Shown here one piece after another: positions 2,826 through 44,744 of a stretch of DNA of 45,918 bases (positions are counted from its first letter, which is position 1; the number at the start of each line of letters is the position of its first letter). The DNA is taken from NCBI GenBank assembly GCA_051650365.1, contig JBOFIW010000315.1, positions 1 to 45,918 of the forward strand, written 5' to 3'. The position numbers were made by a program, and so were the translations under genes. A model generated the notes under the pieces. The model worked only from the letters and a program-made list of their open reading frames with translations. It had not been told where the DNA came from and did no database searches. Source of the stretch: Vibrio sp. Lineage in GTDB: Bacteria > Pseudomonadota > Gammaproteobacteria > Enterobacterales > Vibrionaceae.

Positions 2826-4631
2826 ATGGTAGATAGCGGAAATACATACGGTGATCGAGTCTCTCGCTTAGTTGGTTGGGGGCATTGGTTTGCCTTCTTT
2901 AATATCATCGCAGCCATGCTGATTGGTACGCGGTATATCTCACAATCACCTTGGCCCGAAACCCTACTTGGACAGCTCTATTTAATGCTGTCTTGGGTTG
3001 GGCATTTTGGTTTCCTCGTTTTCTCGCTCTATCTATTAGTGCTTTTTCCTCTTACTTTTATTATCCCATCACGCAGCTTATTTCGATTTGTTGCCGTCTG
3101 TTTTTCGACTTTGGGTTTAACTATTTTACTGATTGATACCCAAGCTTATCAGGTCATTAACCTACATCTGAATCCTGTGGTGTGGGAGCTCCTTTTTAAT
3201 GATGAAACCAGTAGCGTTAGTGCAGATCTACAACACCTGTTTGTTGTGCTACCACTGATTTTCCTGCTTGAGCTTGGTTTGTCTGAATGGGTATGGCGTA
3301 AGCAGCGCAAGCTATCACACAAGCGTATTGGACGCCCACTCGCCGCAGTGTTTTTCGTGAGTTTTATCGCAAGTCACTTAATTTATGTCTGGTCAGACGC
3401 TTATCTGTATTCTCCCGTGACCAGTCAACGAGCGAACTTCCCTCTTTCTTATCCCATGACCGCAAAATCCTTTATGGAAAAACACGGACTGCTTGATAAA
3501 GAAGAGTACAGTAAACGCCTTGCGGAACAGAGTAGTGATATTGATGTGTTAGCATATCCGCTTGAGCCGCTTGAATTTAATCGCCGAGCGAACAACCTGA
3601 ACGTGCTAGTGGTCAGCATCAATAATTTACGTGCAGATGCACTGACGCCTGAGCTCATGCCAAACACGTATCAGTTTGCCAATGACAACCTCAACTTCAC
3701 AAACCATTACAGCTCAAGCAACGATATGTTTGGATTGTTTGGATTGTTCTACGGATTACCAAGTACATACGCAAGCAGCGTGCGTGTACAAGGTAATCCT
3801 GCATTGTTTATTGATGTCATGCAGAAAAATGGCTATCAGTTTGGGTTATTTAGCGGCAACAACTTCGCCGATTCTATTTACCAAGAGACCATCTTCCGCT
3901 CTCTAGAACTTGAAAAAGTCGCAGCTAGTGATGACATTAGCCCAGATGAACAAGCCGTGAAAAATTGGTCTGAATGGGTGCAAACCAAACAGAAAAGTCC
4001 ATGGTTCAGCTATTTGGAGTTCACAACGGTGGAGGAGTTTTCAGAACTCACTACTAACACGGCTCAAAAATCAACAGAAGAACGTTTACGGACCGCTTAT
4101 AATCTTTCAACAACACAAGCCGACTTAGTGGTTAAGAGCTTACTCGATCAGCTTGAATCCTTAAGCCTGTTGGATAATACCATTATCGTGATCACGTCTA
4201 ATCACGGCACCGAATTTAATGAAACAAAAACCAACACTTGGGGTTCAAATAGCAACTACAGTCGCTATCAACTACAGGTTCCTATGGTAATTCATTGGCC
4301 GGGTAAAGTGGCTGGTACTTATGCCCACCGCTCAAGCCACCTCGATTTTTCAGTGACACTGATGCAAGATTTACTTGGTGTATCCTCCAATCCAATTGAT
4401 TACAGCAGTGGCAAAAACCTGTTTAATGAAAGTAAGCGTAAATGGATTTTAGCAGGTGATGCTCGCGAATTGGCTTTAATCACTGATGAACAAACCACCG
4501 TCATTGATAAATTTGGAAACTTCAAAGTTTATGATGCAGATTATCAACGCCTTAAACAAACAAGCCCAACACTACCTGTATTAATGCAAGGTTTAACCGA
4601 ATTGCAGCGTTTTTACGCAAAAGACAATTAA
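2826..4631 (+). CDS. yejM: Inner-membrane LPS regulator YejM/PbgA (sulfatase-like domain)
   Basis: 'WGHWFAFFN', 'FPLSYPMTAKSF', N-terminal TMs plus sulfatase-like C-terminus; synteny with yejL and tRNA-Pro. Confidence 0.93.
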   Translation: MVDSGNTYGDRVSRLVGWGHWFAFFNIIAAMLIGTRYISQSPWPETLLGQLYLMLSWVGHFGFLVFSLYLLVLFPLTFIIPSRSLFRFVAVCFSTLGLTILLIDTQAYQVINLHLNPVVWELLFNDETSSVSADLQHLFVVLPLIFLLELGLSEWVWRKQRKLSHKRIGRPLAAVFFVSFIASHLIYVWSDAYLYSPVTSQRANFPLSYPMTAKSFMEKHGLLDKEEYSKRLAEQSSDIDVLAYPLEPLEFNRRANNLNVLVVSINNLRADALTPELMPNTYQFANDNLNFTNHYSSSNDMFGLFGLFYGLPSTYASSVRVQGNPALFIDVMQKNGYQFGLFSGNNFADSIYQETIFRSLELEKVAASDDISPDEQAVKNWSEWVQTKQKSPWFSYLEFTTVEEFSELTTNTAQKSTEERLRTAYNLSTTQADLVVKSLLDQLESLSLLDNTIIVITSNHGTEFNETKTNTWGSNSNYSRYQLQVPMVIHWPGKVAGTYAHRSSHLDFSVTLMQDLLGVSSNPIDYSSGKNLFNESKRKWILAGDARELALITDEQTTVIDKFGNFKVYDADYQRLKQTSPTLPVLMQGLTELQRFYAKDN

Positions 4632-4657
4632 ATTCATTGTTTTAAGCCAGTTCAGGG

Positions 4658-4686
4658 TTGACGCATTTGGTAAAAGTTATTAGATT
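4658..4686 (+). promoter_or_regulatory. Sigma70 promoter of tRNA-Pro
   Basis: TTGACG-17-TAGATT, GC-rich discriminator, 8 bp upstream of the tRNA. Confidence 0.75.
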
Positions 4687-4694
4687 ACGCCCAT

Positions 4695-4771
4695 CGGACT
4701 GTAGCGCAGCTTGGTAGCGCACCGTCATGGGGTGTCGGGGGTCGGAGGTTCAAATCCTCTCAGTCCGACCA
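4695..4771 (+). tRNA. tRNA-Pro(GGG)
   Basis: CGGACTG/CAGTCCG acceptor stem, anticodon arm CCGTC-ATGGGGT-GTCGG, GGTTCAAATCC T-loop, CCA end; 77 nt. Confidence 0.97.
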
Positions 4772-4780
4772 TACACCTAA
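4722..4780 (+). repeat. att core, left copy (3' part of tRNA-Pro plus 9 bp)
   Basis: CCGTCATGGGG...CCGACCATACACCTAA identical to 44686-44744. Confidence 0.95.
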
Positions 4781-4812
4781 GGCCCGTAATTCAATGAGTT
4801 ACGGGCTTTTTT
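4781..4812 (+). terminator. Phage-supplied terminator after tRNA-Pro
   Basis: GCCCGTAA...TTACGGGC followed by TTTTTT. Confidence 0.8.
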
Positions 4813-4843
4813 ACACCCATAAAAAACCGCCTCAAAATAAGGC

Positions 4844-4876
4844 GGTTCCAAAATGGTTCCAAAACTGGTTCCAATA
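4844..4876 (+). promoter_or_regulatory. Three tandem integrase arm-type sites
   Basis: GGTTCCAAAA at 4844 and 4855, GGTTCCAATA at 4867; the same motif recurs near the right att. Confidence 0.75.
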
Positions 4877-6049
4877 TTATCCCCAAATTGCCAGCTCAGC
4901 GGCGGGAACTTGAACCCACTTCTCGTGCCCCTCTTTGTAGATTTTGGTACTCCGAGCGTCAGTGTGAGCAGCACGAGATTGAGGGTCATGACCCGCTTTA
5001 TCGTATAGGTGAATACTTAAGCCTCGAATCTCATGAAACGTTGGCCGACAATCTACAGCAATACTCTTTTTAACCTTTGCCTGATCTCTAAGCTTGGAAA
5101 AAAAGCGGCTCAAATATTTTCGGTTTACTTGAGTAAAGTGATCACAGTGTTGGCTGACTTCATTGCTAAACTTCTCCGGCAAACGATGCACTATGTAAGG
5201 AGAGTCAACATCGTCCTTACTATCCTCGATAATTTTCAAGAGTGACCTCGTCACAGGGATAACCACTCGGCTCGCTTCTTTGGTTTTAACCTTCCTACGA
5301 TGAATTCGGAGATGACCAAACACTTCCACACCATCCTCAACCGCCGGTTCGCTGAGCCAAGTGATGTGCTCATATTTCATAGCACATACCTCATTGACGG
5401 CGTGTGTTGTCTCGAGAGAAAGATCCATTGCAATTCGCATCCACTTGGGAGCAATTGCCCAAATGGTTTTGTACTCCGCCAACGACAGGCGCTGGCGCTG
5501 CTTACCATCTTTTGGCTTACGCTTTTTTCGCTTAGCAGGGTTATCCACCATCACGGATTCATCTACCGCATAATCGAAAACCTTAGACATGAAAGCGATC
5601 CACCGGTTAAAGACATTATTCGATTTACCTGCAGCAACGACATCGAGAACCATGTTCACATCATCAAGCGTGATGGACATCCCCACTCTATCTCCAATCA
5701 AAGTCTTGAGTTTTGAAAGCCGGTTGTCGAACTCATCTAATGTCGACTTCGTAGGCTTCTCTTCGTCAGCATAACGAGCTGAAACGCGGTCAAAGAATGA
5801 AGAAAGCCTTGCGACTGATTTACGATGATGAGGTTTGATTAAGTCTAAGTTAACCGGATGGGATATTTCAGGATCAACTCGATAAGTGGCGTTGTATCTT
5901 CTGGCCAATGCAATTGCTCGGCTCTTATCGTGGCCAAGGGATTTACTGCTATTGTCGATGCGCCGAAAAACATACCCTTTCTTACCTTTAAAATAGAGAC
6001 CTTCAGGCAGGTCTCTATACTTACTACTTCTTGGACGTGGCACGGTCAC
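4877..6049 (-). CDS. int: Lambda-type tyrosine integrase
   Basis: N-terminal arm-binding-like region, 'TFHEIRGLS' (HxxR), 'AAHTDARSTKIY' (His and catalytic Tyr); next to att. Confidence 0.9.
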   Translation of the reverse strand: MTVPRPRSSKYRDLPEGLYFKGKKGYVFRRIDNSSKSLGHDKSRAIALARRYNATYRVDPEISHPVNLDLIKPHHRKSVARLSSFFDRVSARYADEEKPTKSTLDEFDNRLSKLKTLIGDRVGMSITLDDVNMVLDVVAAGKSNNVFNRWIAFMSKVFDYAVDESVMVDNPAKRKKRKPKDGKQRQRLSLAEYKTIWAIAPKWMRIAMDLSLETTHAVNEVCAMKYEHITWLSEPAVEDGVEVFGHLRIHRRKVKTKEASRVVIPVTRSLLKIIEDSKDDVDSPYIVHRLPEKFSNEVSQHCDHFTQVNRKYLSRFFSKLRDQAKVKKSIAVDCRPTFHEIRGLSIHLYDKAGHDPQSRAAHTDARSTKIYKEGHEKWVQVPAAELAIWG

Positions 6050-6060
6050 CTCAGTACATA

Positions 6061-6255
6061 TTAGTGAGAAAGCAGGTCATCCAAGAAAGGATCACCGCTC
6101 GAGTTCTTCTCTTTTTCTAGGTCTACATAGTATGACCGCCCTATCCGTTTGCCTGGCAACGTACCTAAATCGATTTCTCTACGACAAATCCGCACATCTG
6201 GAGCACCACCATTAGGAAAGCGAATTTGACGCCAAATATTCAACTTCACCAACAT
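6061..6255 (-). CDS. xis: Excisionase-like winged-helix protein
   Basis: Small basic protein 'LPGKRIGRSYYVD' directly upstream of int; ATG at 6255 preferred over GTG at 6270. Confidence 0.75.
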   Translation of the reverse strand: MLVKLNIWRQIRFPNGGAPDVRICRREIDLGTLPGKRIGRSYYVDLEKEKNSSGDPFLDDLLSH

Positions 6256-6384
6256 AAACAACCTACCCACAGATATTTGAAAAAACCTGTGAACCTATGG
6301 AATGAAATTTTCTGTCTGATTGAATTCAGTTACTTAGAATCAATCTGTCTATTATTTCGTCCTCAGATTGCCGCCTGAGGCCGG

Positions 6385-6422
6385 AAAAAACCTATGGGAT
6401 AAACCATGTATCCCATAGGTTT
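6385..6422 (-). terminator. Terminator-like hairpin upstream of xis-int
   Basis: Perfect 14-bp stem AAACCTATGGGATA (6388-6401) / TATCCCATAGGTTT (6409-6422), with a U-tract on the - strand. Confidence 0.7.
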
Positions 6423-6451
6423 GGTTGGAGCCATGAGCATAGTTTTGCCGA

Positions 6452-6967
6452 CTATGCTGCTTTTACTATTCCCTTAATCGTTAGTGATTTGAGTACCGAA
6501 TCAACCCACTCAGCTTCCGCCTCTAATTGACCAATTCTTCGCGCTCTAGCCAGTAGAGCCACAACATCTAACTTCATAGTAGGTGATGCATTCTCATCTA
6601 CTAACTCATTAAGTTCTTGTTGAATTTTTCCACTCAACTTAGCGAAATATGAGGTATTGGCGAGAAAGAGATGAGCTAAAGCTTCGTCTTGAACACGAGT
6701 ACAACTGGGCTCAGCATCATAAGACTTAACCAACTCAGCACGACCAAACGGGGTTAAGGAATAAACTTTCTTGTCAGGTTTCCCGACTTGAGGAATGTGC
6801 TGGCAACTTGCGAAACGATTCGCCTCCAGCTTGGCCAACTCACGATAAATCTGCTGGTGCGATGCTTTCCATCCCTTATCGAGAATGAGTTTAGAGAGGT
6901 CATAGCCGGTTAAAGGCTTTTGACTAATTTCAGCCATGATGATGAGTGGTAAATTTGATAGAGACAT
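6452..6967 (-). CDS. PadR-family transcriptional regulator, AphA-like
   Basis: 'TGYDLSK', 'WKASHQQIYREL', 'PQVGKPDKKVYSLT', C-terminal helices ending 'EWVDSVL'; closely matches Vibrio AphA motifs as I recall them. Confidence 0.85.
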   Translation of the reverse strand: MSLSNLPLIIMAEISQKPLTGYDLSKLILDKGWKASHQQIYRELAKLEANRFASCQHIPQVGKPDKKVYSLTPFGRAELVKSYDAEPSCTRVQDEALAHLFLANTSYFAKLSGKIQQELNELVDENASPTMKLDVVALLARARRIGQLEAEAEWVDSVLKSLTIKGIVKAA

Positions 6968-6997
6968 GGTTTATCCTTCTTCGGTTTAAAAAATTGA

Positions 6998-7249
6998 TCA
7001 ACAGTGATGGTTCAGCACTCGAACGGTGACATCGAGGTGCAGTGATGAAATCCCGAGCTTGGTCGCAAGGCGTTTACGGTTGTCGGCATCGAGATTGATG
7101 GCACTGGCCAACGTCTCGAATTTATTCTCATGACCGCTCATATCAAGCTTTTTGCCTTCGATATATGGCTGGTCTAAACCCGCTTCCTCGTACACTTCTG
7201 CGATCAGTTTCGCGATGTGGTTAAGGGGTTTCTGTTTAGCTTTTGGCAT
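6998..7249 (-). CDS. Hypothetical phage protein
   Basis: 83 aa, overlaps its upstream neighbour in the early operon. Confidence 0.7.
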   Translation of the reverse strand: MPKAKQKPLNHIAKLIAEVYEEAGLDQPYIEGKKLDMSGHENKFETLASAINLDADNRKRLATKLGISSLHLDVTVRVLNHHC

Positions 7250-7493
7250 CTTGCTTTACCTCTTTACTAAGTGTTTCAAACTCTTCTTCATTACAAATTA
7301 GGAAGCCCCCAAATCCCGTCTCACGGTGAAGCACTCCCTCGGCGATGATGCGACCTTCCAACACGTCACAAGCATGTTCGACCGCATCGTTAAAGCTTGG
7401 AAAAGAACCAAGCTGCATGTTCACGACTTCTTTGGTTTTCGTGCTCAAGGCCAAAGAGCCGTTTTCATCCAAATAAGCAGCGATGTAGTTCAC
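7236..7493 (-). CDS. Hypothetical acidic phage protein
   Basis: 85 aa, GTG start with GGAG RBS, overlaps neighbours. Confidence 0.7.
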   Translation of the reverse strand: MNYIAAYLDENGSLALSTKTKEVVNMQLGSFPSFNDAVEHACDVLEGRIIAEGVLHRETGFGGFLICNEEEFETLSKEVKQDAKS

Positions 7494-7783
7494 TCAAATG
7501 TCGCTCCAGGCTGCTTTACCTGAGATTTGCAAATAGCCATACAATCTCCATTTCCAAGATGACGAACAAATGCGTGGTAAACCGTTTTGGTAAGCGGTGA
7601 CGAAACATGTGGTGTCAGTGGTAACAACGCTTCAGCTACACAACCGAATGTATCAAGGTCAATACCAAACTTATCCATAAGCGGTGTATCAAAATCCTCA
7701 TCGTCATTGATGATTTCATCAGTCTGTTCTTCACTTAAACCCAATGCCGCACCGGCTAGTTGCTGAATGTCAAATAAGTCCAT
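7490..7783 (-). CDS. Hypothetical acidic phage protein
   Basis: ATG at 7783 preceded by TAAGGAG; D/E-rich. Confidence 0.75.
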   Translation of the reverse strand: MDLFDIQQLAGAALGLSEEQTDEIINDDEDFDTPLMDKFGIDLDTFGCVAEALLPLTPHVSSPLTKTVYHAFVRHLGNGDCMAICKSQVKQPGATFE

Positions 7784-7790
7784 AGTTAAC

Positions 7791-8413
7791 TCCTTACTGA
7801 TTAGTTTCTTTCTCACGAACATCTTCAGCTAAGCGTTGGTAAATGGCTGAAACATACTTAGCCTGGTGAACTGCATCAGATTGGGCGTCATGGCGAATGC
7901 CTTCAAAAGGCATGTCACGCTTAGGGTCAAAACCAAGTAGGTTTTTTCCTAGGTCAACCATTGTTCGAACATCACGTTCATTCCAGAACTGCCAAGGAAC
8001 ATACTGCTCACCTAAGCACTGGATAATCGTATTTTTCAGAATTACACAGTCAAATGATGAGCCATTACCCCAAACTAAAGGCTGGCTTAAACCATCGTTA
8101 GTGAATTGACGAAAATCGTGCAGAGCTTGCTTGATGTGTACGGCTTCTCGGCTGTTCAATACTTCTCTGGCTTCACTGCTTTGCTTCATCCACCAAAGCA
8201 CAGTGCTAGCATCCACAAGACCGAACTGCTGAGAACTTTCCAAAGAAATAATCCGAGAGAATGTTTCTCCAATTTCTCCTGTCGAAGGCTCGAAAAAACA
8301 AGCACCAATAGCGACGATCGCAGCATTGCTGCTCTTCCCCATTGTCTCTAAGTCAATCATTAGGTTTTTCATTAGTCATATCCTTACTGGTTAGTTTCTT
8401 TCTCACGAACATC
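7791..8413. repeat. 33-bp direct repeat (7791-7823 and 8381-8413) flanking the exonuclease gene
   Basis: TCCTTACTG(A/G)TTAGTTTCTTTCTCACGAACATC, 1 mismatch. Confidence 0.9.
7794..8372 (-). CDS. DEDDh 3'-5' exonuclease (phage RNase T/DUF5051-like)
   Basis: 'MIDLETMG', 'WGNGSSFD', 'ERDVRT', 'HDAQSDAVHQA'. Confidence 0.85.
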   Translation of the reverse strand: MKNLMIDLETMGKSSNAAIVAIGACFFEPSTGEIGETFSRIISLESSQQFGLVDASTVLWWMKQSSEAREVLNSREAVHIKQALHDFRQFTNDGLSQPLVWGNGSSFDCVILKNTIIQCLGEQYVPWQFWNERDVRTMVDLGKNLLGFDPKRDMPFEGIRHDAQSDAVHQAKYVSAIYQRLAEDVREKETNQ

Positions 8414-11143
8414 GTCTGGAATGGTTGGGAACAGGCCGAATTCGCGCAGGTTCTCAACGCCCAGAGCGACAAAATTTGCAACGCGCTTACCGTTAATGGA
8501 TTTCTCGTGGCCATCTTTCAGCACCACTTTGGCTTCTTTGAGCTGCTTCTTCAGAATGCGATCGCTCTTCACAGGTAAGCTGTCAAACTTGGCTTTCAAT
8601 GCAGGGCTTTGGCTGATGTGCTGCATGATGTGGCTAGTACGAACCAGCAAGCACAGCTCCCCCTCAATCCAATCGAACGAAAACGGGTGGCGGAAATGCC
8701 CTGCATCCATCTCGCCCAGGATAAGTTCCATAATCCACACCCACGGCTCGCGCTCTGCTTCCGTTTCGCGAATGTGCGCATTCATCTCTGTCACCAAATC
8801 TTGAATAAAGTGACCATAGTTACTCGCTGCACCGGTGAATTCGCAGAGCAAACGCCACGTCAGCATCAAACAGGCATAGTTATCACGCATACGGTTCGCG
8901 CCGTTATCGTCCGGCTTAGCCATACAACGCTTCGAAAGGTAATCAACACACTCGCGGTAGGCGCGCTTCATTTGCGGTCGAGTGTAAGAAGTCAGGTAAA
9001 GGATCCAGTTTTTAACGGGGAAACGAGGCAACTCATCAGGAATCATGTCGCCCTTACGGCCAGTCAAGTCAGAACGCACCAGCTTGCCAAGCAACGATTG
9101 CACCGGCACGTCTTCACCCGCCAACAGCACCGGCGCAATACTCAAGAATTCGGTCATATCCGTACCGCGGCGAGTAATGGTGTATTGGTAGCTCTCTTGC
9201 AGCATGGCCACCGCTTTATCAATCACACCTTGGCCCTGAGCGGAGAGCTCTTCCCAACCTACAGGATGAGAGGTGTGCGATATCGATGTCAGCAAGCGGA
9301 ACTCGGTTTTCAAGCTCTGGCCAGAAAACATGGTGAAGGCCAACGTGCGCTCAAGTGATTTCACCAGCGTTGATTTACCCGCGCCTTTCCCCGCATTCAG
9401 CATGTAGTGAGGCCAAAAACCTAAGAAGGTTTTGATGTGCGCGCCCAAGCCCCAAACCAACAGCATCAACGCCGCGTTGTTTTTGAATGTCGCATGGTAT
9501 GCCTCAATCACACGCAGAGCCTGCTCTGGAGAGCCCGATGGAAACTGTAAATTGTGGTAAGGGCACTGCTGTGTTGGATCAGTAAAGAATGAGTCCGGCC
9601 CTTCGTTTAAAATCGCTTGGCCGTTATGCCAAGCAAGCCCAACAAAGTTAACCGCGTTGCGCTCACCAAGGTGGGTGGCGCGCTCGAGAATTGAGATCAT
9701 CCGTGTAAACTTGCCTGGGTTAAAAATGCCGCCGCCGACCCGACGCCAAACATCGATGTTGTAAAGCTGCTCACGCTTGAGCACAAAACGGGTAAGCTCA
9801 GTTGGTGAATCAGGCGTTTGAATCGTGGCTGAATAAACCTTCGTTGGCTGCAAATCGGGTTCGCCTGTCATGGCCGAATTCGCTGATGAAATCGTTACTT
9901 TCGATAAGCCGGCAATACGGAATGAGCACACATCTTGTGGGATCTTCTGCTCGCCTTCTTCATTGGTGACAATTTTCAAATAGCTGGTGAAATCAGGCTT
10001 CACTCGAAACAACCAATAGAGAGATTGATCGTGATGTGGCAGCGGCAAGCGCTTAAATTGTGCGTTCTCGAACTCACCTTCCTGCCCTGCAATAAGCCAA
10101 GGTTCGAAATAATCCAGCGCATACTTGGTCATTTGCGTACCGTGCTTACGCAGATAATCGTTCAGGTCATTAATCTCTTCCCACTTCCCGCCGGATTGAT
10201 CAACAAGGAAACATGGGATGTTAAGCGCCGTGCATCGCTCATGAACAATCCATGCTGCTTCTGGCCCCGGTCTGTGGCCTTTTCTTGCTCCTTCCGCAAT
10301 CGGCTTGTCATTATCAAAACAACAAACCACACGCTTGCCAGATAGGAATCGCCAGTCGATTTCTTCTACCGCTAATCCACGAGTCGCAATCGCCGTCACC
10401 GGTACTTTCCCTTTACCCTTTGGGTCATAAGCTGCAATGGCAGAGATGGCATTAATCGCAGATTCAACCACAATCACCGTTTTCGCCCTCTTAAGCGCCA
10501 TTTTGTCAGGGATATAGGGATAACCGCGCTTCTCGCCCATCGCCTTAGTTTTGTTGTCACCGTTTAGCGCAGGATCAAAAAATCGAAAATCTATCCCCAC
10601 CACTTCATTGGTAAATAGGCAGCGGCTCGGGAACGTCACTGCAGGGCCACCGTAACCCAACTCACCAGGGTTTTTGCTTGGGCTTGTCCAGTCGCTGTAA
10701 CCGAAAGCGCCGCGCTTTTGCAACATATCCACCACATCAGCAGGAATACCGCGCTCATCAATCAAGTAAGCTCGAGCATCACTCGCAACCGCAGATTGCT
10801 TTTCAGCAACCCATGCCAGTTGGCTTTGAGGTTTTTGTTGCTGAGGGGCAACATCGTCCGTGGGAATATTGAACTCTTCATGCAGCCACTTCATTGCTTC
10901 GCTGGCATCCATCGCTTGACCGCAATAGATCACCAAATCAAGGCATGAACCCTTCTCGCCAGACGTATGATCTTTCCACATCATGTAGCCGGCTTTACCT
11001 GCATCAAAAATACTCACGCTCGGGTGCTTATCTGGGCGGTTGGGTGCGCGGTAGTTACCATTTGGGTCAGGTCTTTCCATACCTAAACGGTCAGCCAATT
11101 CGTGTAAGTCAATCAGTTGTTTTAGTTGTTCTGCGGACGCCAT
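8384..11143 (-). CDS. Primase-helicase replication protein (Toprim plus P-loop NTPase)
   Basis: 'VVESAINA', 'CFDND', 'NDLNDYL' Toprim motifs; Walker A 'AGKGAGKS'; 919 aa. Confidence 0.85.
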   Translation of the reverse strand: MASAEQLKQLIDLHELADRLGMERPDPNGNYRAPNRPDKHPSVSIFDAGKAGYMMWKDHTSGEKGSCLDLVIYCGQAMDASEAMKWLHEEFNIPTDDVAPQQQKPQSQLAWVAEKQSAVASDARAYLIDERGIPADVVDMLQKRGAFGYSDWTSPSKNPGELGYGGPAVTFPSRCLFTNEVVGIDFRFFDPALNGDNKTKAMGEKRGYPYIPDKMALKRAKTVIVVESAINAISAIAAYDPKGKGKVPVTAIATRGLAVEEIDWRFLSGKRVVCCFDNDKPIAEGARKGHRPGPEAAWIVHERCTALNIPCFLVDQSGGKWEEINDLNDYLRKHGTQMTKYALDYFEPWLIAGQEGEFENAQFKRLPLPHHDQSLYWLFRVKPDFTSYLKIVTNEEGEQKIPQDVCSFRIAGLSKVTISSANSAMTGEPDLQPTKVYSATIQTPDSPTELTRFVLKREQLYNIDVWRRVGGGIFNPGKFTRMISILERATHLGERNAVNFVGLAWHNGQAILNEGPDSFFTDPTQQCPYHNLQFPSGSPEQALRVIEAYHATFKNNAALMLLVWGLGAHIKTFLGFWPHYMLNAGKGAGKSTLVKSLERTLAFTMFSGQSLKTEFRLLTSISHTSHPVGWEELSAQGQGVIDKAVAMLQESYQYTITRRGTDMTEFLSIAPVLLAGEDVPVQSLLGKLVRSDLTGRKGDMIPDELPRFPVKNWILYLTSYTRPQMKRAYRECVDYLSKRCMAKPDDNGANRMRDNYACLMLTWRLLCEFTGAASNYGHFIQDLVTEMNAHIRETEAEREPWVWIMELILGEMDAGHFRHPFSFDWIEGELCLLVRTSHIMQHISQSPALKAKFDSLPVKSDRILKKQLKEAKVVLKDGHEKSINGKRVANFVALGVENLREFGLFPTIPDDVREKETNQ

Positions 11144-11414
11144 AAAGCGTGCCCCCTATTCTGTGTAGTTCTACCCCAATTGCGACAGGGCCAAAGTGAC
11201 GTTCTAACTCTTGCTTAACTTGCTGAAACTCAGATGACTTCAATAAGTCAGCCATGGTGGGGTGATTCTGCTGAATGTGTGCCCACACCATCTGCTTTTT
11301 GTCCGGCTCTAAATCGCTGAGAGTGACAGAAGGCATCACGAGTCGAATTAGAACCGGTTCGGAGTACCAGAGCGGACATTTCCACCCCGGATAAGCATTA
11401 AAGGTCGCAGGCAT
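11109..11414 (-). CDS. Hypothetical phage protein
   Basis: In the early operon; start may instead be 11336. Confidence 0.6.
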   Translation of the reverse strand: MPATFNAYPGWKCPLWYSEPVLIRLVMPSVTLSDLEPDKKQMVWAHIQQNHPTMADLLKSSEFQQVKQELERHFGPVAIGVELHRIGGTLYGVRRTTKTTD

Positions 11415-11697
11415 AAATCCGCCTTAAGCAGGCTGACGCAAGCCAAAGCTCTTCACTCAAGTTACAGCTGTGCGTCAGTTGCTGTTTCTCTACTTGCTCA
11501 GGTGGTACATGCTTCATCTCTTCCACATCGAGCTTAATGTGGCCTTGCTGCTCCCAGGCTGAGAACACAACATCCAACTCATCCATAAACGCTTGGCGGT
11601 TGATATAGCCCTGCTGACGAACCATCTGGTTTTCAAGCTTGAAAAGACAAGCACGTTCAGGCGCACTGAGCTTGGTCGCGGCGATTAGGTTAGGCAT
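11398..11697 (-). CDS. Hypothetical phage protein
   Basis: ATG at 11697 with GGAGG RBS; 'CNLSEELWLASACLRR'. Confidence 0.7.
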   Translation of the reverse strand: MPNLIAATKLSAPERACLFKLENQMVRQQGYINRQAFMDELDVVFSAWEQQGHIKLDVEEMKHVPPEQVEKQQLTHSCNLSEELWLASACLRRIYACDL

Positions 11698-12001
11698 GCG
11701 CACCTCCCAAATACCAGCTAGCGAGCTTGCGTGTTGGGCGCAGTTGGTAACGCGCCCACACCGAGTGCTCATTCAACATGCTGAGGAAAGTGTCCAAGTA
11801 ACACTCAGGCACACCGTCACTAATCAGCCACAGCCGGATATCGCCTGGATAAACCCCAAGGCGATCCGCCACATATTCCGTTACTTCACGAGAGCTCCCT
11901 TTACTTGAGAAACGATGCAAATTGACGTTACGCAAAGCGGCAGAAAGCGCATTGCGACGCATCGTAACCAAGGCTTCATCTAACGTGATTTGAACTTCCA
12001 T
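11690..12001 (-). CDS. Hypothetical protein, possible HTH DNA-binding
   Basis: GAGGAG RBS; 'VADRLGVYPGDIRLW' is HTH-like. Confidence 0.65.
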   Translation of the reverse strand: MEVQITLDEALVTMRRNALSAALRNVNLHRFSSKGSSREVTEYVADRLGVYPGDIRLWLISDGVPECYLDTFLSMLNEHSVWARYQLRPTRKLASWYLGGAHA

Positions 12002-12015
12002 GCTTACTCCTCAGT

Positions 12016-12228
12016 TCAGTAGTGGGTTGAAAACGCCGCTACAACACGGTCTTTGCTAACAATCACAGGGGGTTCACCAACCATCTTCACCACAACGTTC
12101 GCCCCTTTATCTTCACACCACTCCACCAAAGCGGCGGTGACTCGATTGCCTTCAAAACTGATCACGTGGCCACGGCTGATTTGTTCGGCTGGCATTTGCC
12201 AAAATTGCGGTTCAATTAGCGGAAACAT
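12016..12228 (-). CDS. Hypothetical phage protein
   Basis: 70 aa, GGAGG RBS, overlaps the recombinase stop. Confidence 0.65.
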   Translation of the reverse strand: MFPLIEPQFWQMPAEQISRGHVISFEGNRVTAALVEWCEDKGANVVVKMVGEPPVIVSKDRVVAAFSTHY

Positions 12229-12917
12229 GTGCTGGCCTCCCGCATTGCTACGGCAATGGACTCTTTATCCGGTGCGGTATAAATCGCCGTGGTAGAAAGG
12301 TTGGAATGCCCAAGCACAGCTTGAACACGGCGCAACGCATCCGGTGATGTGGTTCGCCCTAAAAAACGAATCGCCCAGGTATGGCGCAGCCAGTGCGGTG
12401 TACCATCTGGCACATTGGCTAACCGGCACCATGTAGAGAAACGGGCTTGGAATGAACGGCGACTCATCGCTTGACGATTACGGCTCAAGAACAATGGGCG
12501 CTCTTGCCGTGGAATGTCCCACTCAATCGTTGCCGCCATTTCTTCATGAATTTTTAAAAGCTGTTTCAGGGCATGAATAGCCGATTTGTTTAAAGCGATC
12601 GGATGCTTTTTCTGATTTTTCGCGTTCTCGCGGCTGTAAATCAGGTAACCCTCTTCAAGGCTTTGCTCCGCTTCTCCCACTGTTAAACCAACCATTGGCA
12701 GGTTATAGCGCTTAGCCTTTTCGGCATCCGGGCCAGCAAGCACACCTAATCGCACGGCAGTTTCACGCATCAGCAGCATCCAGTAATAATCACGCTGCGC
12801 GTAAATGCCGTAGGTTTGCTTCACCGTGTTGAACAAGCGCTTCTCTTCTTGCTCAGTGAAATAGTGCAAAAAATATTGAATGGATGATGCAGAGTTATTC
12901 ATTGCTAAGGTTGTCAT
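12216..12917 (-). CDS. Tyrosine recombinase, catalytic domain only
   Basis: 'ETAVRLGVL', 'HWLRHTWA', 'LGHSNLSTTAIY'; 233 aa with no N-terminal SAM-like domain; AGGAGG RBS. Confidence 0.85.
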   Translation of the reverse strand: MTTLAMNNSASSIQYFLHYFTEQEEKRLFNTVKQTYGIYAQRDYYWMLLMRETAVRLGVLAGPDAEKAKRYNLPMVGLTVGEAEQSLEEGYLIYSRENAKNQKKHPIALNKSAIHALKQLLKIHEEMAATIEWDIPRQERPLFLSRNRQAMSRRSFQARFSTWCRLANVPDGTPHWLRHTWAIRFLGRTTSPDALRRVQAVLGHSNLSTTAIYTAPDKESIAVAMREASTCFR

Positions 12918-12946
12918 GGCCTACCTCCTTTGGCTTCGCCGTTGAA

Positions 12947-13426
12947 TTAACCGTTAACCAGTGCGCGCAAACGCTCAAGCAGCTCAAGTGCTGCCGCAAA
13001 CGTATGTTGCAGTTCGCGCTCAATACGCTCGAATTCTTGAAGCTCGATGTCCCCATCTTCTAAGGCATCGGCAATGGCGCGGTTCACATCGCCGATTTCG
13101 GCGTGCCAACGGCTGTAACAGTTGAGCAGTTCCACATCAGAAATCGCTCGGTAGTCACCAAGGTAGTAAATGGAATAATTCAGCTCGGAAGCAATGGAGC
13201 GGAGGATTTGCACATCTTTCGTGAACAACATCAGCTTGATGGCATCAAACAAACCCAGTTTGTGGCTGGACTGATTAGGGTTGATCTCGTTAAGCAACAC
13301 ACCCGGTCTTTTGTTTAGGTGCTGCTCAACGGATTCGGTATTACCATGCTCTTTCAGCGTTTGGTATAAAGCGTGTACCACCTGCGGGAAAGTGCAGGCA
13401 GATGAAGGAACGATAGCAGTTTGCAT
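12947..13426 (-). CDS. Phage regulatory protein, CII family (186/P2-like)
   Basis: 'VLLNEINPNQSSHKLGLFDAIKLM', 'ALEDGDIELQE'. Confidence 0.75.
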   Translation of the reverse strand: MQTAIVPSSACTFPQVVHALYQTLKEHGNTESVEQHLNKRPGVLLNEINPNQSSHKLGLFDAIKLMLFTKDVQILRSIASELNYSIYYLGDYRAISDVELLNCYSRWHAEIGDVNRAIADALEDGDIELQEFERIERELQHTFAAALELLERLRALVNG

Positions 13427-13575
13427 CGTAAGCTCCTTAAAATTGATACGTTTCCAATTTCAAAAGCCTGCGCTACAATCTACCCCAAGGATGAAATGGT
13501 GTTGGAGCCGTGAGCATAGAGGTTGTGGCCTCGCTCGTTATCCTAGTGGTTGACTGTCTAGACAGACTTCTACGG

Positions 13576-13608
13576 CCCTTACTGATTGCCGTTAGTAAGG
13601 GTTTTTTT
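13576..13608 (+). terminator. Intrinsic terminator on the + strand, antisense to the cro-cII transcript
   Basis: CCCTTACTGA-TTGCCG-TTAGTAAGGG-TTTTTTT; the G.U pair favours the + strand. Confidence 0.7.
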
Positions 13609-13615
13609 ATGCCTG

Positions 13616-13804
13616 TTACATTCCCCCACTCAATGGTGGCAAACCTAACTCCTCCTCTTTCTCATCAACTGCTTTTTTCAGAAGAATACGGGTCATTTGT
13701 GCCAGTTTTCGGGAATCCAACGTTGCTAAACGTTCAATCCGTTGTCTTAAATGTAAATCGCGAGTGGCAATAACATCCATATTTGGACTTGAATTGGTAC
13801 TCAT
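13616..13804 (-). CDS. Cro-position small regulator, ribbon-helix-helix-like
   Basis: Divergent from the repressor; 'LRQRIERLATLDSRKLAQMTRILLKKAV' is Arc/RHH-like; GGGAG RBS. Confidence 0.7.
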   Translation of the reverse strand: MSTNSSPNMDVIATRDLHLRQRIERLATLDSRKLAQMTRILLKKAVDEKEEELGLPPLSGGM

Positions 13805-13938
13805 GGTCTCTCCCATCTGTGATAGACTAGATTTTTGAAACAAATGAAAACTAGATAATCCAAATAATTAACTTGTTAACATTTGAAATGAATAATAGAT
13901 CCAAAAATGGACTAAAACAAGCCGAAGAAGGTAAAAAT

Positions 13939-14745
13939 ATGGAACTTTCTTTTGAGGAGCGTCTCAGCTTTATTCTTCAAGACCGAAAGCAGACACCATG
14001 GGGAAAAGGACTAGGGTTCACTGGCGCATCAATTTCACACATTTTTTCTGGGGGACGCATTCCTGGCCCTGAATTTCTCCAAGCCATTCGTAAAGCTGAG
14101 AACGTCAACCTGAACTGGTTACTGACTGGTGATGGTTCACCATTTGTTGTTGAATACTTCCTCTCTGCAGATGCTTTATCTGATTACTTATCTGCCATGC
14201 TCCACGAAGAAGAGTGGGTTGTTCATGTTTGCTCATACCAAGACATTGCTTGCATCGTACTCACCCAGCCCGGGCAATATGAATTCAAGGGGAAATGGAT
14301 CGATTATCGAATTGTGCATGTTTTGGTTGGCCCTGGTGATGAGGTCATCACTGAATTACTGCATGATTACCACCGTGGACAACACGCCATCTTCGTCTCA
14401 GAACTCACCGAAGAACAACGACAAGCCATTATCCGTGGACAAGTTGGCACTTACCTTATGCTCGAACAGATGAACCCCATGCTGAACACCGTGAGAGTGG
14501 AAACCCACATATCTCAAATTGAGTTCACTGGTGGGGAACGTACAGAAAAACCCGTTGATATCGCCATCATGCGTGCCGTGGTTCGATTAGTGGATGAATG
14601 TGAACAAGAACTTAGAACCTCGCTCACCAGTAATGAGCGAGCCAGAGTTATCACTGCCGTTTACCGTCAAGCTGAACGCCTTAAACTCTCAGAAGAAGAA
14701 ATACAGGCTGCAATCGAAACCTCGTTTGATGTCCTGAGTGACTGA
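13939..14745 (+). CDS. CI-like immunity repressor (N-terminal XRE HTH)
   Basis: 'PGPEFLQAIRKAENVNLNWLLTGDG'; divergent from the cro-like gene; no recognisable S24 peptidase. Confidence 0.75.
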   Translation: MELSFEERLSFILQDRKQTPWGKGLGFTGASISHIFSGGRIPGPEFLQAIRKAENVNLNWLLTGDGSPFVVEYFLSADALSDYLSAMLHEEEWVVHVCSYQDIACIVLTQPGQYEFKGKWIDYRIVHVLVGPGDEVITELLHDYHRGQHAIFVSELTEEQRQAIIRGQVGTYLMLEQMNPMLNTVRVETHISQIEFTGGERTEKPVDIAIMRAVVRLVDECEQELRTSLTSNERARVITAVYRQAERLKLSEEEIQAAIETSFDVLSD

Positions 14746-14787
14746 TTCTTTTCTTGCCGATGTGCTAACGCTTGTTCTAATCGTAAC

Positions 14788-14824
14788 AACGCCAGAGCTA
14801 ACACTTGTTGCTCTGGCGTTTTTT
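14788..14824 (+). terminator. Terminator after the repressor
   Basis: AACGCCAGAGC...GCTCTGGCGTT followed by TTTT. Confidence 0.75.
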
Positions 14825-15000
14825 CATTGAATGACCTAACCATTTGTACCCTAATTTTAGTGTTTCTCTTTTTGAGTACAGTTTACTGATTTTTGCAACG
14901 TAAGTTGCTGTGCCACCCGTCACATAGCGAATGTGTAGACGCTGCACTAGAGAATAGAGACGGATTGTCTCCGTTCAACTAGCGGTGTTTTTTTCCCTGT

Positions 15001-15339
15001 ATGATGCGCGGCGAAATGAAGAATCTAAGACTCAAACAAGCGAGGGTGGCGGCAGGATTGTCCAGGGAAAAAGTTGCAGCAGCTATGCACAAATCGCCAC
15101 ACACCATCAAATCCTGGGAAACAACCTCACGTCAGCCAAGAACGCTACGTGAGGTTGAACGCTTGTGCGCGATTTTAGATATTACAGTGAACTGGTATCT
15201 CACTGGCCAGCAGCCAATGAGACCGATAAAACAAGGCGAGAAAGAAAGGGAATTGCTTCGGCTTTTTGCAACGCTGTCACCACGTCAACAAGATGCTGTA
15301 TTAGAGTTAATAAGGGTGTTTGAGCACTCAACAGATTGA
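15001..15339 (+). CDS. XRE-family HTH regulator
   Basis: 'RLKQARVAAGLSREKVAAAM...IKSWE...ITVNWYLTG'. Confidence 0.85.
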   Translation: MMRGEMKNLRLKQARVAAGLSREKVAAAMHKSPHTIKSWETTSRQPRTLREVERLCAILDITVNWYLTGQQPMRPIKQGEKERELLRLFATLSPRQQDAVLELIRVFEHSTD

Positions 15340-15342
15340 TTC

Positions 15343-16263
15343 CTAATCTCGATTCAGACTTGTGATTTCAATAAGTGGGCTTACTGCTTCAGCAATTGCC
15401 TTATCGAGCTCATCAAATTTATCGCTTATATCATTTAAATAGCTAGAAAACTGTCCTTTGAGCTGGTCAAGTGAAAGCGATATCTGTTGGTCTAGCCGTT
15501 GATCATGCTTAGGCGCAGCTAAAGACATTAAATTATCTCTCTCCGTTTGAATCATTTTCTTTACATCAATCCCTGGTAGTCCATGTGATAACCATCGGAA
15601 GTGTGGAGCACCTAATTTCTCAATGACATTTTTTGATAACCTAAGAAGCTCTGCATTCAGTTCTTTTTGCGCTAAATATTGCTGGCTAAAATCTGCCGCC
15701 CTTCTCTTTGACTCGTTCAGTTCTTCATCTAGTTTTTTATTGGAAGCATCGAGCATTGAGTAATTGCTGCTAGCAATCGACAACTGACTTTCCAGTTCAC
15801 GCTGTTGGGCTATTAAGTGTGAAACTGTTTCTTTTAGCTGAATGATTTGTCGCCCTGCCTCTTCGGCACGATTTCGATGTAACTCTTGCCAATATTCCAA
15901 GCTGGCTTTGCTTTGTTGCTGAGCGACCTTAGCTTGACCAAGATATTTTTCATGCAGATGCTGATGGTGAGTTGCCGTTCTGCGCTTATCAACAAGCCTA
16001 TACTTAACGATATCAATCCCCCACTGAGCTAATGGCACAATAAACAAGTAGGCAAGAGCCAGCGCTAATGGCAGGAGCAAATCACTATTTAGGTTAAATG
16101 GAGTGCTCTCAATCAACGCTATGCGTTGGGTATTGTCTGAGAACAATAACTTGGCTACATGATCATGGTTATAAGCCAACCAAGACAGCACAAAGGTACC
16201 AAGTAATGGGGTTTTCATTCGACTGGACATTTCAGAAAAGACTGAGGAAAGAAAGCTTTGCAT
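15343..16263 (-). CDS. Accessory membrane protein (2 TMs plus long coiled coil)
   Basis: 'RMKTPLLGTFVLSWLAYN' TM, second TM, heptad-rich C-terminus; preceded by a terminator. Confidence 0.75.
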   Translation of the reverse strand: MQSFLSSVFSEMSSRMKTPLLGTFVLSWLAYNHDHVAKLLFSDNTQRIALIESTPFNLNSDLLLPLALALAYLFIVPLAQWGIDIVKYRLVDKRRTATHHQHLHEKYLGQAKVAQQQSKASLEYWQELHRNRAEEAGRQIIQLKETVSHLIAQQRELESQLSIASSNYSMLDASNKKLDEELNESKRRAADFSQQYLAQKELNAELLRLSKNVIEKLGAPHFRWLSHGLPGIDVKKMIQTERDNLMSLAAPKHDQRLDQQISLSLDQLKGQFSSYLNDISDKFDELDKAIAEAVSPLIEITSLNRD

Positions 16264-16330
16264 CTAATTTAGGCATCTACGTTTATCACCAATATCGCGA
16301 TAATACTCATCAATATGCCTAAAGTTCAAT

Positions 16331-16361
16331 AAAAAAGGCGGACTCTTTAGTCCGCCTTTTT
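16331..16361. terminator. Intrinsic terminator
   Basis: AAAAAGGCGGACT-CTTT-AGTCCGCCTTTTT. Confidence 0.85.
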
Positions 16362-16375
16362 AACTTAAAAAACTA

Positions 16376-16948
16376 TCACGCCATAATTTTGTCATTGGGG
16401 CAAAGATCACCACCACGAATGCTTGTGCCTTTATCAACAAAACATAGGTCAGCCATAAGGTTAGCTGTATCTTTTACTCTATTGTAGATCGTTCCAAACA
16501 ACTTTAGAACAAGTACAAACGGCAAAAAGTAAAGCACAAACATTAATGAGTTCATTGCAAGAACTCTTTCAAGTACACGATTAACTGCAAAAAAGATCTC
16601 TTTCGGCGCCTTGTCTGATGCATTTTCAATCAGATGATAAAAACGCTTAAAATCTTTACTACTTTCTTGACTACTTCTTGTAACAGCCGCAACTTTTAGA
16701 AAATTAGTAAAGGTCATTAGATGCAAACGATTCAAAGAGCGATTGATCCCATCATCAACTTCTTTGAATGCACGAAGTGTACTCTTATCTGCATGGCCTT
16801 GAATTTCTACTAAACGAGCTCTTAACTCATCTCTGAGTATAAAAAGCTCATCTCTTGCTTTTTGACGATAACTAGGTAATACAATCGCTTGATAAATGTA
16901 ATGTACAAAACAAATCAAAAACAGTATTACGCCAACATACTGCACCAT
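16376..16948 (-). CDS. Accessory membrane protein
   Basis: N-terminal TM and a second TM near residue 135; AGGAG RBS; AT-rich. Confidence 0.75.
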   Translation of the reverse strand: MVQYVGVILFLICFVHYIYQAIVLPSYRQKARDELFILRDELRARLVEIQGHADKSTLRAFKEVDDGINRSLNRLHLMTFTNFLKVAAVTRSSQESSKDFKRFYHLIENASDKAPKEIFFAVNRVLERVLAMNSLMFVLYFLPFVLVLKLFGTIYNRVKDTANLMADLCFVDKGTSIRGGDLCPNDKIMA

Positions 16949-16975
16949 AGCTCATCTCCTTTAGGACAACTGAGT

Positions 16976-17341
16976 CTAGCTATCACTAGAGTTTAGCACG
17001 GTCTTATTTGCCGCTTCTTGCTGTAATCTGGACTTTTCAAGCCCTATTCTTTTATATTCGGCGCTGTGCTGTCTTCTCATTAATCGAGCATGACCCGCCC
17101 ATAAAACACCGACTACGATGCTTAAGACCCATCCCATTAAGGAAAAGTTCTTAAAACCATCAACAATACCTAAACCAAACTCGTACACTTTGTCTTCTGG
17201 CATCTTGAAGATCAAAGCGATAACAATTAAAAAAAACAACACAGGCAGTAGTTGCCCTCTATCCATAGATCTTAAGATAATGTCTCTGAACGCTTGAGCC
17301 CACGTAACGCTTTGTTGCTGTTTTTTTGCTGGTTTAGTCAT
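16976..17341 (-). CDS. Accessory membrane protein (2 TMs)
   Basis: 121 aa, two hydrophobic segments, AT-rich, upstream of the 190-aa gene. Confidence 0.75.
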   Translation of the reverse strand: MTKPAKKQQQSVTWAQAFRDIILRSMDRGQLLPVLFFLIVIALIFKMPEDKVYEFGLGIVDGFKNFSLMGWVLSIVVGVLWAGHARLMRRQHSAEYKRIGLEKSRLQQEAANKTVLNSSDS

Positions 17342-42068: not shown

Positions 42069-42311
42069 TTAGTCGAAGATAACTGATATCTCAGCTTCAT
42101 TGATAAACAGCCAGGTATGGCCATTGGCGGTGACATCAAGCCCCGAATAAGGGTTGAACAGAATTCTCGCGCCTACTGCGACTTCTTTTACCCGAGGGCC
42201 AACAGCGACTACCTCACCAGTGTTAGCTGGCTTATCTGGCGTCCACAACAAGCTTCTGGGGCGTTCATCTCGCTGAATTACTACCCAATCATGCAGTGGT
42301 CTTAATTTCAT
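42069..42311 (-). CDS. Phage co-chaperonin GroES/Cpn10-like
   Basis: 'MKLRPLHDWVVI', 'GEVVAVGP', 'VAVGARILFNPYSG', 'INEAEI'. Confidence 0.88.
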   Translation of the reverse strand: MKLRPLHDWVVIQRDERPRSLLWTPDKPANTGEVVAVGPRVKEVAVGARILFNPYSGLDVTANGHTWLFINEAEISVIFD

Positions 42312-44685: not shown

Positions 44686-44744
44686 CCGTCATGGGGTGTC
44701 GGGGGTCGGAGGTTCAAATCCTCTCAGTCCGACCATACACCTAA
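44686..44744 (+). repeat. att core, right copy (truncated tRNA-Pro 3' part)
   Basis: Identical to 4722-4780. Confidence 0.95.

What the first reader, a model, noticed from the sequence alone, without database searches (positions are those of the whole stretch)
6452..6967. Prophage-encoded AphA homolog directly upstream of xis-int
Seen: a 171-aa PadR protein with TGYDLSK, WKASHQQIYREL, PQVGKPDKKVYSLT..GR, TRVQDEALAHL and a C-terminal RR...EWVDSVL. Established (motifs from memory): V. cholerae AphA has TGYDITK, WKASHQQVYREL, PQEGKPDRKVYSIT..GR, TVRDEFSAKL and RR...QWADEVL. AphA is the dimeric low-cell-density quorum-sensing regulator that activates tcpPH and opposes HapR. The recognition helix is near-identical while the dimerisation helices have diverged. 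Inference: the phage may carry its own AphA mimic to override host quorum-sensing, virulence or biofilm circuits, to interfere with host AphA, or to tie excision to cell density.
Basis: partly seen in the sequence, partly recalled or inferred. Interest (0 to 1): 0.85.

Follow-up and report, generated by a model that had tools for sequence, protein, structure and literature searches.

The report
Phage AphA cousin beside RNA switch
A Vibrio prophage carries a distant cousin of the host's quorum-sensing regulator AphA, a kind of phage gene already in print, which likely acts briefly on host genes rather than on the neighbouring excision genes, whose leader is predicted to be controlled by an undescribed phage small RNA encoded 7 kb away.

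Summary
Observation confirmed: a 171-aa PadR protein (6452-6967, minus strand) in an intact 40-kb prophage, best solved relative AphA. It is not an AphA ortholog: it falls in a mobile-element clade sister to chromosomal AphA, lacks PF10400, and the host keeps its own aphA (35% identical). Phage AphA homologs are published (PMC13670528), match 101 Vibrio phage records, and this scan met them three times on other DNA. New here: the gene is a frequent but dispensable early accessory gene of one Vibrio phage family (8 of 9 spanning loci), with an invariant AphA-type recognition helix under purifying selection and a ClpX-type Ala-Ala tail (15 of 16). No AphA box is conserved in the prophage, so host promoters are the likelier targets (untested). 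The excision link is not supported. The gap before xis is a structured leader that stays with xis when the gene moves or is lost, and it is complementary, with five co-changes across phages, to a predicted ~125-nt antisense RNA between cro and cII that matches no Rfam family. That RNA is the more novel lead; nothing here shows it is made.

The parts
6452..6967 (-). AphA-like PadR subfamily-1 regulator, 171 aa, ending KAA
   Evidence: tree
6436..6458 (-). Leader hairpin 1, overlapping the gene's last codon and stop
   Evidence: pairs nearly invariant, so no covariation support
6424..6442 (-). Target segment, 18 of 19 nt identical to the copy at 13501-13519; complementary to the predicted sRNA
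6385..6422 (-). Leader hairpin 2 followed by a U run; terminator-like
   Evidence: z -3.2; 3 pairs with double changes; not called by the simple terminator scan
6361..6380 (-). Leader hairpin 3; loop complementary to the sRNA terminator loop (6366-6373 = 13584-13591)
   Evidence: 5 of 7 pairs with double changes
6300..6308 (-). Third segment complementary to the sRNA 5' part (13489-13497), 8 of 9 plus one G-U
6061..6255 (-). Probable excisionase, 64 aa (ATG start; the listed ORF begins at GTG 6270)
4877..6049 (-). Tyrosine integrase
4722..4780 (.). att repeat at tRNA-Pro(GGG) (tRNA 4695-4771)
44686..44744 (.). Second att repeat, other end of the prophage
6998..8372 (-). Variable accessory genes between primase and the AphA-like gene (83, 85, 110 aa, exonuclease)
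8384..11143 (-). Primase, family marker
12947..13426 (-). CII-like activator (CP76), first gene after the sRNA locus
13451..13479 (+). Promoter-like site (-10 TACAAT or TACACT in all 13 aligned loci)
13485..13610 (+). Predicted ~125-nt antisense small RNA with intrinsic terminator (13574-13603 plus U run)
   Evidence: (z -3.3); no Rfam match
13616..13843 (-). Cro-like small ORF (weak RHH hit, E 0.024)
13873..14745 (+). Repressor-like HTH protein

Best explanation
The gene encodes a phage-borne sister lineage of AphA in the accessory end of the prophage's early operon; it is likely made as a short pulse, likely cut short by ClpXP through its Ala-Ala tail, and would bind host AphA operators to repress genes such as hapR, while excision genes next door are predicted to be gated by a separate phage small RNA. 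Steps. Shown: identity, clade, position, dispensability, selection, tail, absence of conserved AphA boxes in the phage, presence of AphA boxes before host hapR and aphA, and the complementarity with co-changes between the sRNA locus and the xis leader. Inferred from known families: an AphA-type helix 3 reads AphA-type operators; AphA represses most direct targets by occlusion, which needs the DNA-binding head more than the diverged C-terminal part; Ala-Ala-COOH recruits ClpX. Inferred only: expression on induction or infection; benefit by holding the cell in a low-density-like state, which would lower HapR-dependent defences such as CBASS and lower competence; sRNA pairing causes termination or decay upstream of cII and of xis-int, like P4 CI RNA.
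For: Helix-3 motif 16/16 in the family, 20/20 AphA, 2/24 non-Vibrio rows. dN/dS in residues 1-85 about 0.03-0.13 in the 7 of 12 pairs with non-zero dN and dS below 2.2, lower or saturated in the rest. Range: 101 of 112 matching phage records are Vibrio phages of several unrelated groups, 25 of 81 matching plasmids are Vibrio, 0 of 59 distant primase relatives carry it. Dispensable and movable: 8 of 9 primase-found loci that span the region carry it, L155 does not; 2 of 13 have it right after primase. No box with 2 or fewer mismatches to the ChIP-seq consensus in the 40-kb prophage, against 182 in 3.09 Mb of host DNA; exact published AphA sites lie before host hapR and aphA. Tail: AA in 15/16 family rows, 0/20 AphA, 26/2058 long ORFs of the genome; penultimate codon varies synonymously; tail disordered in the model (PMC7652416 passages). 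AphA as repressor: PMC3440409, PMC6855506 passages. QS-activated CBASS: PMC10653837 abstract and section titles. sRNA.
Against: No binding, expression timing or phenotype is shown. Helix 3 is not unique to AphA: two cyanobacterial rows match 12-13 of 15, and the top fold hit is mycobacterial Rv1176c, with AphA 13th. The AphA+mobile clade has 94/90, short of the star mark, the bootstrap had not settled, and many mobile rows are long branches. A 3-residue deletion before helix 3 and a shortened C-terminal part could change operator spacing or specificity. The last Ala codon is also held by hairpin 1. RNA contigs cover the gene in lysogen-like libraries of three studies at low depth, which gives neither strand nor level and may be DNA. 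Box scarcity is also seen in L146, which lacks the gene. An earlier agent favoured phage-own targets for another member (e1-6225836). For the sRNA, the cognate leader ranked first for only 2 of 15 RNAs, and one unrelated prophage window paired as well as the leader.
Confidence: 0.45

Rival explanations
1. Phage-own regulator: it binds a diverged operator in the phage (early, late or lysis promoters) and ignores the host regulon.
For: Conserved in most family members; diverged 65% from host AphA; lytic-looking phages also carry relatives; earlier agent's reading for another member.
Against: Absent from L155 with the rest intact; no own promoter region (30 bp to the upstream stop); no conserved AphA-type box; helix 3 has not drifted as expected for a new operator. 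I did not search for a different, unknown operator.
Confidence: 0.25
2. Anti-AphA: it forms heterodimers with host AphA and inactivates it or drags it to ClpXP by its Ala-Ala tail, pushing the cell towards the high-density state.
For: Heterodimer model score 0.69, best of 3 controls 0.00; mark reached by 116 of 157 solved and 2 of 215 mismatched pairs; runs agree in at least 59% of contacts, partner pLDDT at least 74; closest contacts are host R156-phage W154 and host W167-phage R143, invariant in both alignments. Degron tail.
Against: AphA and PadR homodimers are solved, so the pass may reflect likeness only. A poison subunit would not need an intact recognition helix and wing under purifying selection.
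Confidence: 0.17
3. Density-to-excision coupler: the protein (or host AphA) binds the gap before xis-int and ties excision to cell density.
For: Directly upstream of xis in 11 of 13 loci. A half-site-like 20-mer at 6433-6452 scores 4.5 bits (p 0.002) and 10.7-12.3 in two relatives.
Against: The same 20-mer scores -6 to 2.6 in 6 of 13 relatives; its left half varies while the spacer is invariant; its right half is explained by pairing with the sRNA; the leader persists without the gene, with three genes inserted before xis in L155.
Confidence: 0.08
4. Ligand-responsive generic PadR repressor or near-neutral cargo with no link to the AphA system.
For: Fold hits are led by ligand-sensing PadR-s1 proteins; gene is dispensable.
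Against: Purifying selection; Vibrio-restricted spread; sister position to AphA; no efflux or detox gene beside it.
Confidence: 0.05

Closest known systems
AphA of Vibrio (PDB 1yg2; PadR subfamily 1)
   Same: wHTH head, helix-3 and wing motifs, R-x10-W pair of the dimer helix, overall layout.
   Different: 35% identity; no PF10400 hit; 3-residue deletion before helix 3 and 13-17 residues fewer in the C-terminal part; Ala-Ala tail; outside the AphA clade; operonic phage gene; host retains aphA.
Prophage-encoded AphA homolog, phrog_13512 (PMC13670528, Sargassum Vibrio prophage.8; also MAR10 gp016)
   Same: Same PHROG; about 35% to host AphA; separate phage clade; predicted dimer; same speculation on quorum sensing and lysogeny.
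   Different: That gene is flanked by a Ref-like nuclease and a tail gene; I did not have its sequence. The passages read mention no degron tail, no family synteny, no operator scan and no small RNA. Its supplements were not opened.
Phage-encoded quorum-sensing regulators (VP882 VqmA, LuxR-type receptors; review PMC11945551 passages)
   Same: Host quorum-sensing component carried by a phage.
   Different: Those bind autoinducers; AphA is not known to, so this protein could impose a state but not sense density.
P4 CI RNA, P22 Sar, lambda OOP (passages in PMC4825925, PMC12197685)
   Same: Small phage RNA pairing with early-operon mRNA; CI pairs with two sites to cause termination; OOP is antisense to cII.
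   Different: Here one opposite-strand RNA with its own promoter and terminator is antisense in cis to the cro-cII gap and complementary to a second leader 6-8 kb downstream; no Rfam match; function untested.

Membership tests
AphA (Vibrio low-density master regulator) | N-terminal PadR wHTH with WKASHQQ.YREL helix | tested here: met
AphA (Vibrio low-density master regulator) | C-terminal Vir_act_alpha_C domain PF10400 | tested here: not met
   no hit at E 1; host AphA E 1.7e-16
AphA (Vibrio low-density master regulator) | Nests in the chromosomal AphA clade | tested here: not met
   20 AphA rows form a clade 99/97 without it
AphA (Vibrio low-density master regulator) | Single chromosomal gene at the conserved locus | tested here: not met
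   host copy on C30 between two housekeeping genes; this one is in a prophage
AphA (Vibrio low-density master regulator) | Dimerises through the last helix | tested here: inconclusive
   key residues kept; only a heterodimer model, open to likeness bias
AphA (Vibrio low-density master regulator) | Binds AphA operators and regulates hapR/luxR, qrr, tcpPH | not testable with these tools
   needs binding and reporter assays
AphA (Vibrio low-density master regulator) | Translation activated by Qrr RNAs | not tested
   no Qrr pairing scan run; only 30 bp separate the start from the upstream stop
PadR subfamily 1 | About 180 aa with a multi-helix C-terminal domain | tested here: met
   171 aa; helices 94-101, 105-126, 135-170, pLDDT 88; definition from PMC3506622 passage; fold hits
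Phage AphA-like regulators (phrog_13512) | Full-length profile match and phage context | tested here: met
   E 6e-27, residues 3-163; 24-row mobile clade 98/88
ClpX C-terminal degron substrates | Exposed Ala-Ala-COOH | tested here: met
ClpX C-terminal degron substrates | ClpXP-dependent turnover | not testable with these tools
   needs a stability assay
P4 CI-type immunity RNA | Pairs with two separate sites of the early transcript | tested here: inconclusive
   complementarity with five co-changes and G-U bias; prediction only
P4 CI-type immunity RNA | Processed from the same-strand early transcript | tested here: not met
   opposite strand with own promoter-like site and terminator; no Rfam match
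P4 CI-type immunity RNA | Causes premature termination in the lysogen | not testable with these tools
   RNA data held are contigs without strand or ends

The most novel reading that the evidence does not exclude
This phage family splits its early programme in two undescribed ways: a degradation-tagged AphA mimic that briefly resets the host quorum-sensing regulon to switch off density-dependent anti-phage defence, and one antisense RNA of a new family that silences both cII-onward transcription in cis and xis-int 7 kb away in trans, with variable loops acting as immunity keys.
Probability: 0.25. Interest if true: 0.8.

Novelty: new variant of a known kind. Interest (0 to 1): 0.5.

Why it matters
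AphA-like genes recur across many Vibrio phages and plasmids and none has a tested function in the papers found. If they override the host regulon, they are a general way for mobile elements to cancel quorum-sensing-gated defence and competence, and prophage content could shift biofilm and virulence regulation between strains. The predicted small RNA gives a sharp, cheap test of long-range RNA control of excision, with natural compensatory alleles already at hand.

Tried and rejected
AphA box in 6270-6450: 4 matches in the window against 2.65 expected, none there; weight-matrix candidate not conserved. Depletion of AphA boxes as evidence: seen also in a phage without the gene. The invariant AAAACTATGCT read as a -10 promoter or sigma-54 site: considered, not excluded, but the co-changes fit RNA pairing better. 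A small ORF in the leader: stops early in L002. Rfam over 4600-16000: only tRNA and two chance snoRNA hits. RNA runs: X21 and X24 raw reads lack the prophage, X1 laid almost nothing on it; contigs of X4, X5, X6, X7 cover the gene, X13 partly; the sRNA locus had no cover in X4-X7 and slight cover in X13, which shows nothing either way. Host-genome scan for sRNA targets used a seed off by two bases and too lax a wobble rule; discarded. sRNA model on 34 sources found only family members, with two weak hits in distant primase loci (E 0.001, 0.15). The AphA crystal paper was not held, so DNA-contact residues were not checked against mutagenesis; a search for AphA dominant-negative mutants gave nothing useful. 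PDB sequence search for xis: nothing. No AU test was run; non-Vibrio tree rows were chosen by motif patterns, so wing-motif counts are uninformative. Searches for prior reports: phage AphA; phage sRNA and xis; none showed a functional test of a phage AphA homolog or this RNA, but the library lacks most subscription papers.

Full report
Observation. The ORF at 6452-6967(-) is 171 aa with all quoted motifs. It matches PadR, phrog_13512 over nearly its length and, best among 9 PDB sequence hits, V. cholerae AphA. The window holds a whole prophage between identical 59-bp repeats at tRNA-Pro(GGG) beside yejM. The host genome (70% complete) has its own aphA on another contig, 34.6% identical, and exact published AphA sites before hapR and aphA.

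Relatives. A protein search gave 44 hits among 251 candidates, 15 of them at 48-99%. Thirteen loci (3 of 80 kept genome loci, 10 of 11 viral loci) all belong to one temperate family with the order cro, cII, recombinase, primase, variable genes, xis, int. The gene is directly before xis in 11 and directly after primase in 2. Four of 90 same-genus genomes carry it. Found independently by primase, 13 of 72 loci are close; 9 span the region and 8 carry the gene, L155 does not; 4 end too early; none of the 59 distant loci has it. All 6 of 150 genus genomes found by the RNA model carry it. More distant homologs occur in 112 of 50,697 phage records, 101 of them Vibrio phages of several groups, and in 81 plasmids, 25 of them Vibrio.

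Placement. In a 69-row tree (182 columns) the 20 chromosomal AphA rows are a clade (99/97); the 16 family rows group with 8 of 9 other mobile rows (98/88); all 45 together have 94/90 against 24 non-Vibrio rows (bootstrap unsettled, long branches; near-duplicate loci were left out). So it is a sister lineage, not a recent capture and not an ortholog. PF10400 is missing. The helix-3 motif is in 16/16, 20/20, 2/9 and 2/24 rows of the four groups, but two cyanobacterial rows match host helix 3 as well as the phage protein does. The model is a confident PadR-s1 fold (pLDDT 88) whose best fold hits are Rv1176c and B. subtilis PadR, AphA 13th. Both halves are under purifying selection, the head more.

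Tail. Fifteen of 16 family rows end in Ala-Ala, the other in Val-Ala; no AphA row does; background is 26 of 2058 long ORFs. The penultimate codon varies synonymously and the tail persists in L090 and L091, which lack the overlapping hairpin; the last codon is invariant and partly explained by that hairpin. Terminal Ala-Ala is the main ClpX determinant (PMC7652416, passages). A short half-life is inferred.

Targets. No AphA box is conserved in the phage, though scarcity itself is not specific. AphA represses most direct targets (PMC3440409 passages and table; PMC6855506 passages), and quorum sensing raises CBASS expression through HapR (PMC10653837, abstract and section titles). With dispensability, accessory position and Vibrio-only range, this favours host promoters (0.45) over phage-own targets (0.25). 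A heterodimer with host AphA scored 0.69 against 0.00 for the best of 3 controls (mark met by 116 of 157 solved and 2 of 215 mismatched pairs; 59% contact agreement; partner pLDDT 74), through invariant R and W residues, but solved PadR dimers may explain the pass; interference gets 0.17.

The gap before xis. It folds into three hairpins; over 11 rows 8 of 23 pairs show double changes, above all 500 shuffles and all slid controls (kin are not independent). It stays upstream of xis when the gene is elsewhere or absent, in L155 with three genes between it and xis. A 19-nt segment recurs 6.2-7.9 kb upstream, between cro and cII, in all 15 loci compared. There the opposite strand has a conserved -10 box, a structured 125-nt stretch (z -3.3) and an intrinsic terminator. 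Three segments of this predicted RNA are complementary to the leader. Five changes are shared between the two sites within a phage: L003/L087/L088, L090/L091, L089 and two in L085, one of them loop to loop. Of 24 differences between the copies 17 are C to T in the leader, which G-U pairing tolerates in this polarity; they fall on few positions in related phages. Cognate pairs average -47.1 against -43.3 kcal/mol (0 of 10,000 permutations), but rank first for only 2 of 15, and energy alone does not single out the leader. A shared protein site on both minus-strand copies is the alternative. Rfam has no match. Closest are P4 CI, Sar and OOP (passages of PMC4825925 and PMC12197685). Public RNA contigs cover the AphA-like gene in three studies but give no strand or level and do not show the sRNA.

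Prior knowledge. PMC13670528 (passages and section 20 read; supplements not opened) reports a prophage AphA homolog of the same PHROG with tree, models and the same speculation; PMC11295528 notes it in passing; PMC13603594 and PMC11945551 passages show no functional test. Three earlier notes of this scan cover other members. That early accessory regions of temperate phages often hold host-directed genes is recalled, not from a call.

Verdict. Real gene, known kind, with a new tail feature and a better-supported host-directed reading; the excision link is not supported. The neighbouring RNA switch is the novel lead. Interest 0.5.

Noticed in passing
window 7783-7826 and 8373-8416: 44-nt direct repeats flank the exonuclease gene; RNA contigs of near-identical prophages in three runs skip exactly this 590-bp stretch, so the repeats likely drive cassette loss and exchange in the accessory region.
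   Followed up: partly
window 12216-12917 and 42308-43354: Two further tyrosine recombinases besides the integrase; the 233-aa one follows cII in every family member compared (72-100% identity).
   Followed up: no
window 30907-33483: 858-aa head protein with no Pfam hit and one weak PHROG hit; position suggests a fused protease, scaffold and capsid protein.
   Followed up: no
window 15343-17341: Three low-GC (39%) genes of unknown function between the immunity region and tail genes, varying between relatives; moron-like.
   Followed up: no
L133 1713-5142 (plasmid NZ_CP053819.1): A plasmid AphA-like gene ending in Val-Ala lies between an integrase and a yejK-like gene; another homolog on a 135-kb contig (L127) ends in Ala-Ala.
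   Followed up: no
L002, L004 versus L003, L126, L226: Family members use different tRNA sites (tRNA-Val or tRNA-Pro beside yejM) with 61-79% identical integrases, while the leader and sRNA stay conserved.
   Followed up: partly
L123 6552-7724; L129 6546-7073: The integrase of the G050 prophage is in two pieces, and the chromosomal aphA of G072 appears split in two frames; either may be an assembly error.
   Followed up: no
L124 1435-3108: Two repressor paralogs in tandem in an otherwise near-identical prophage; repressors vary widely (36-82%) between members with near-identical early genes.
   Followed up: no
L155 13276-15215: Three genes, one toprim-like, are inserted between the structured leader and xis, in the one member that lacks the AphA-like gene.
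   Followed up: partly
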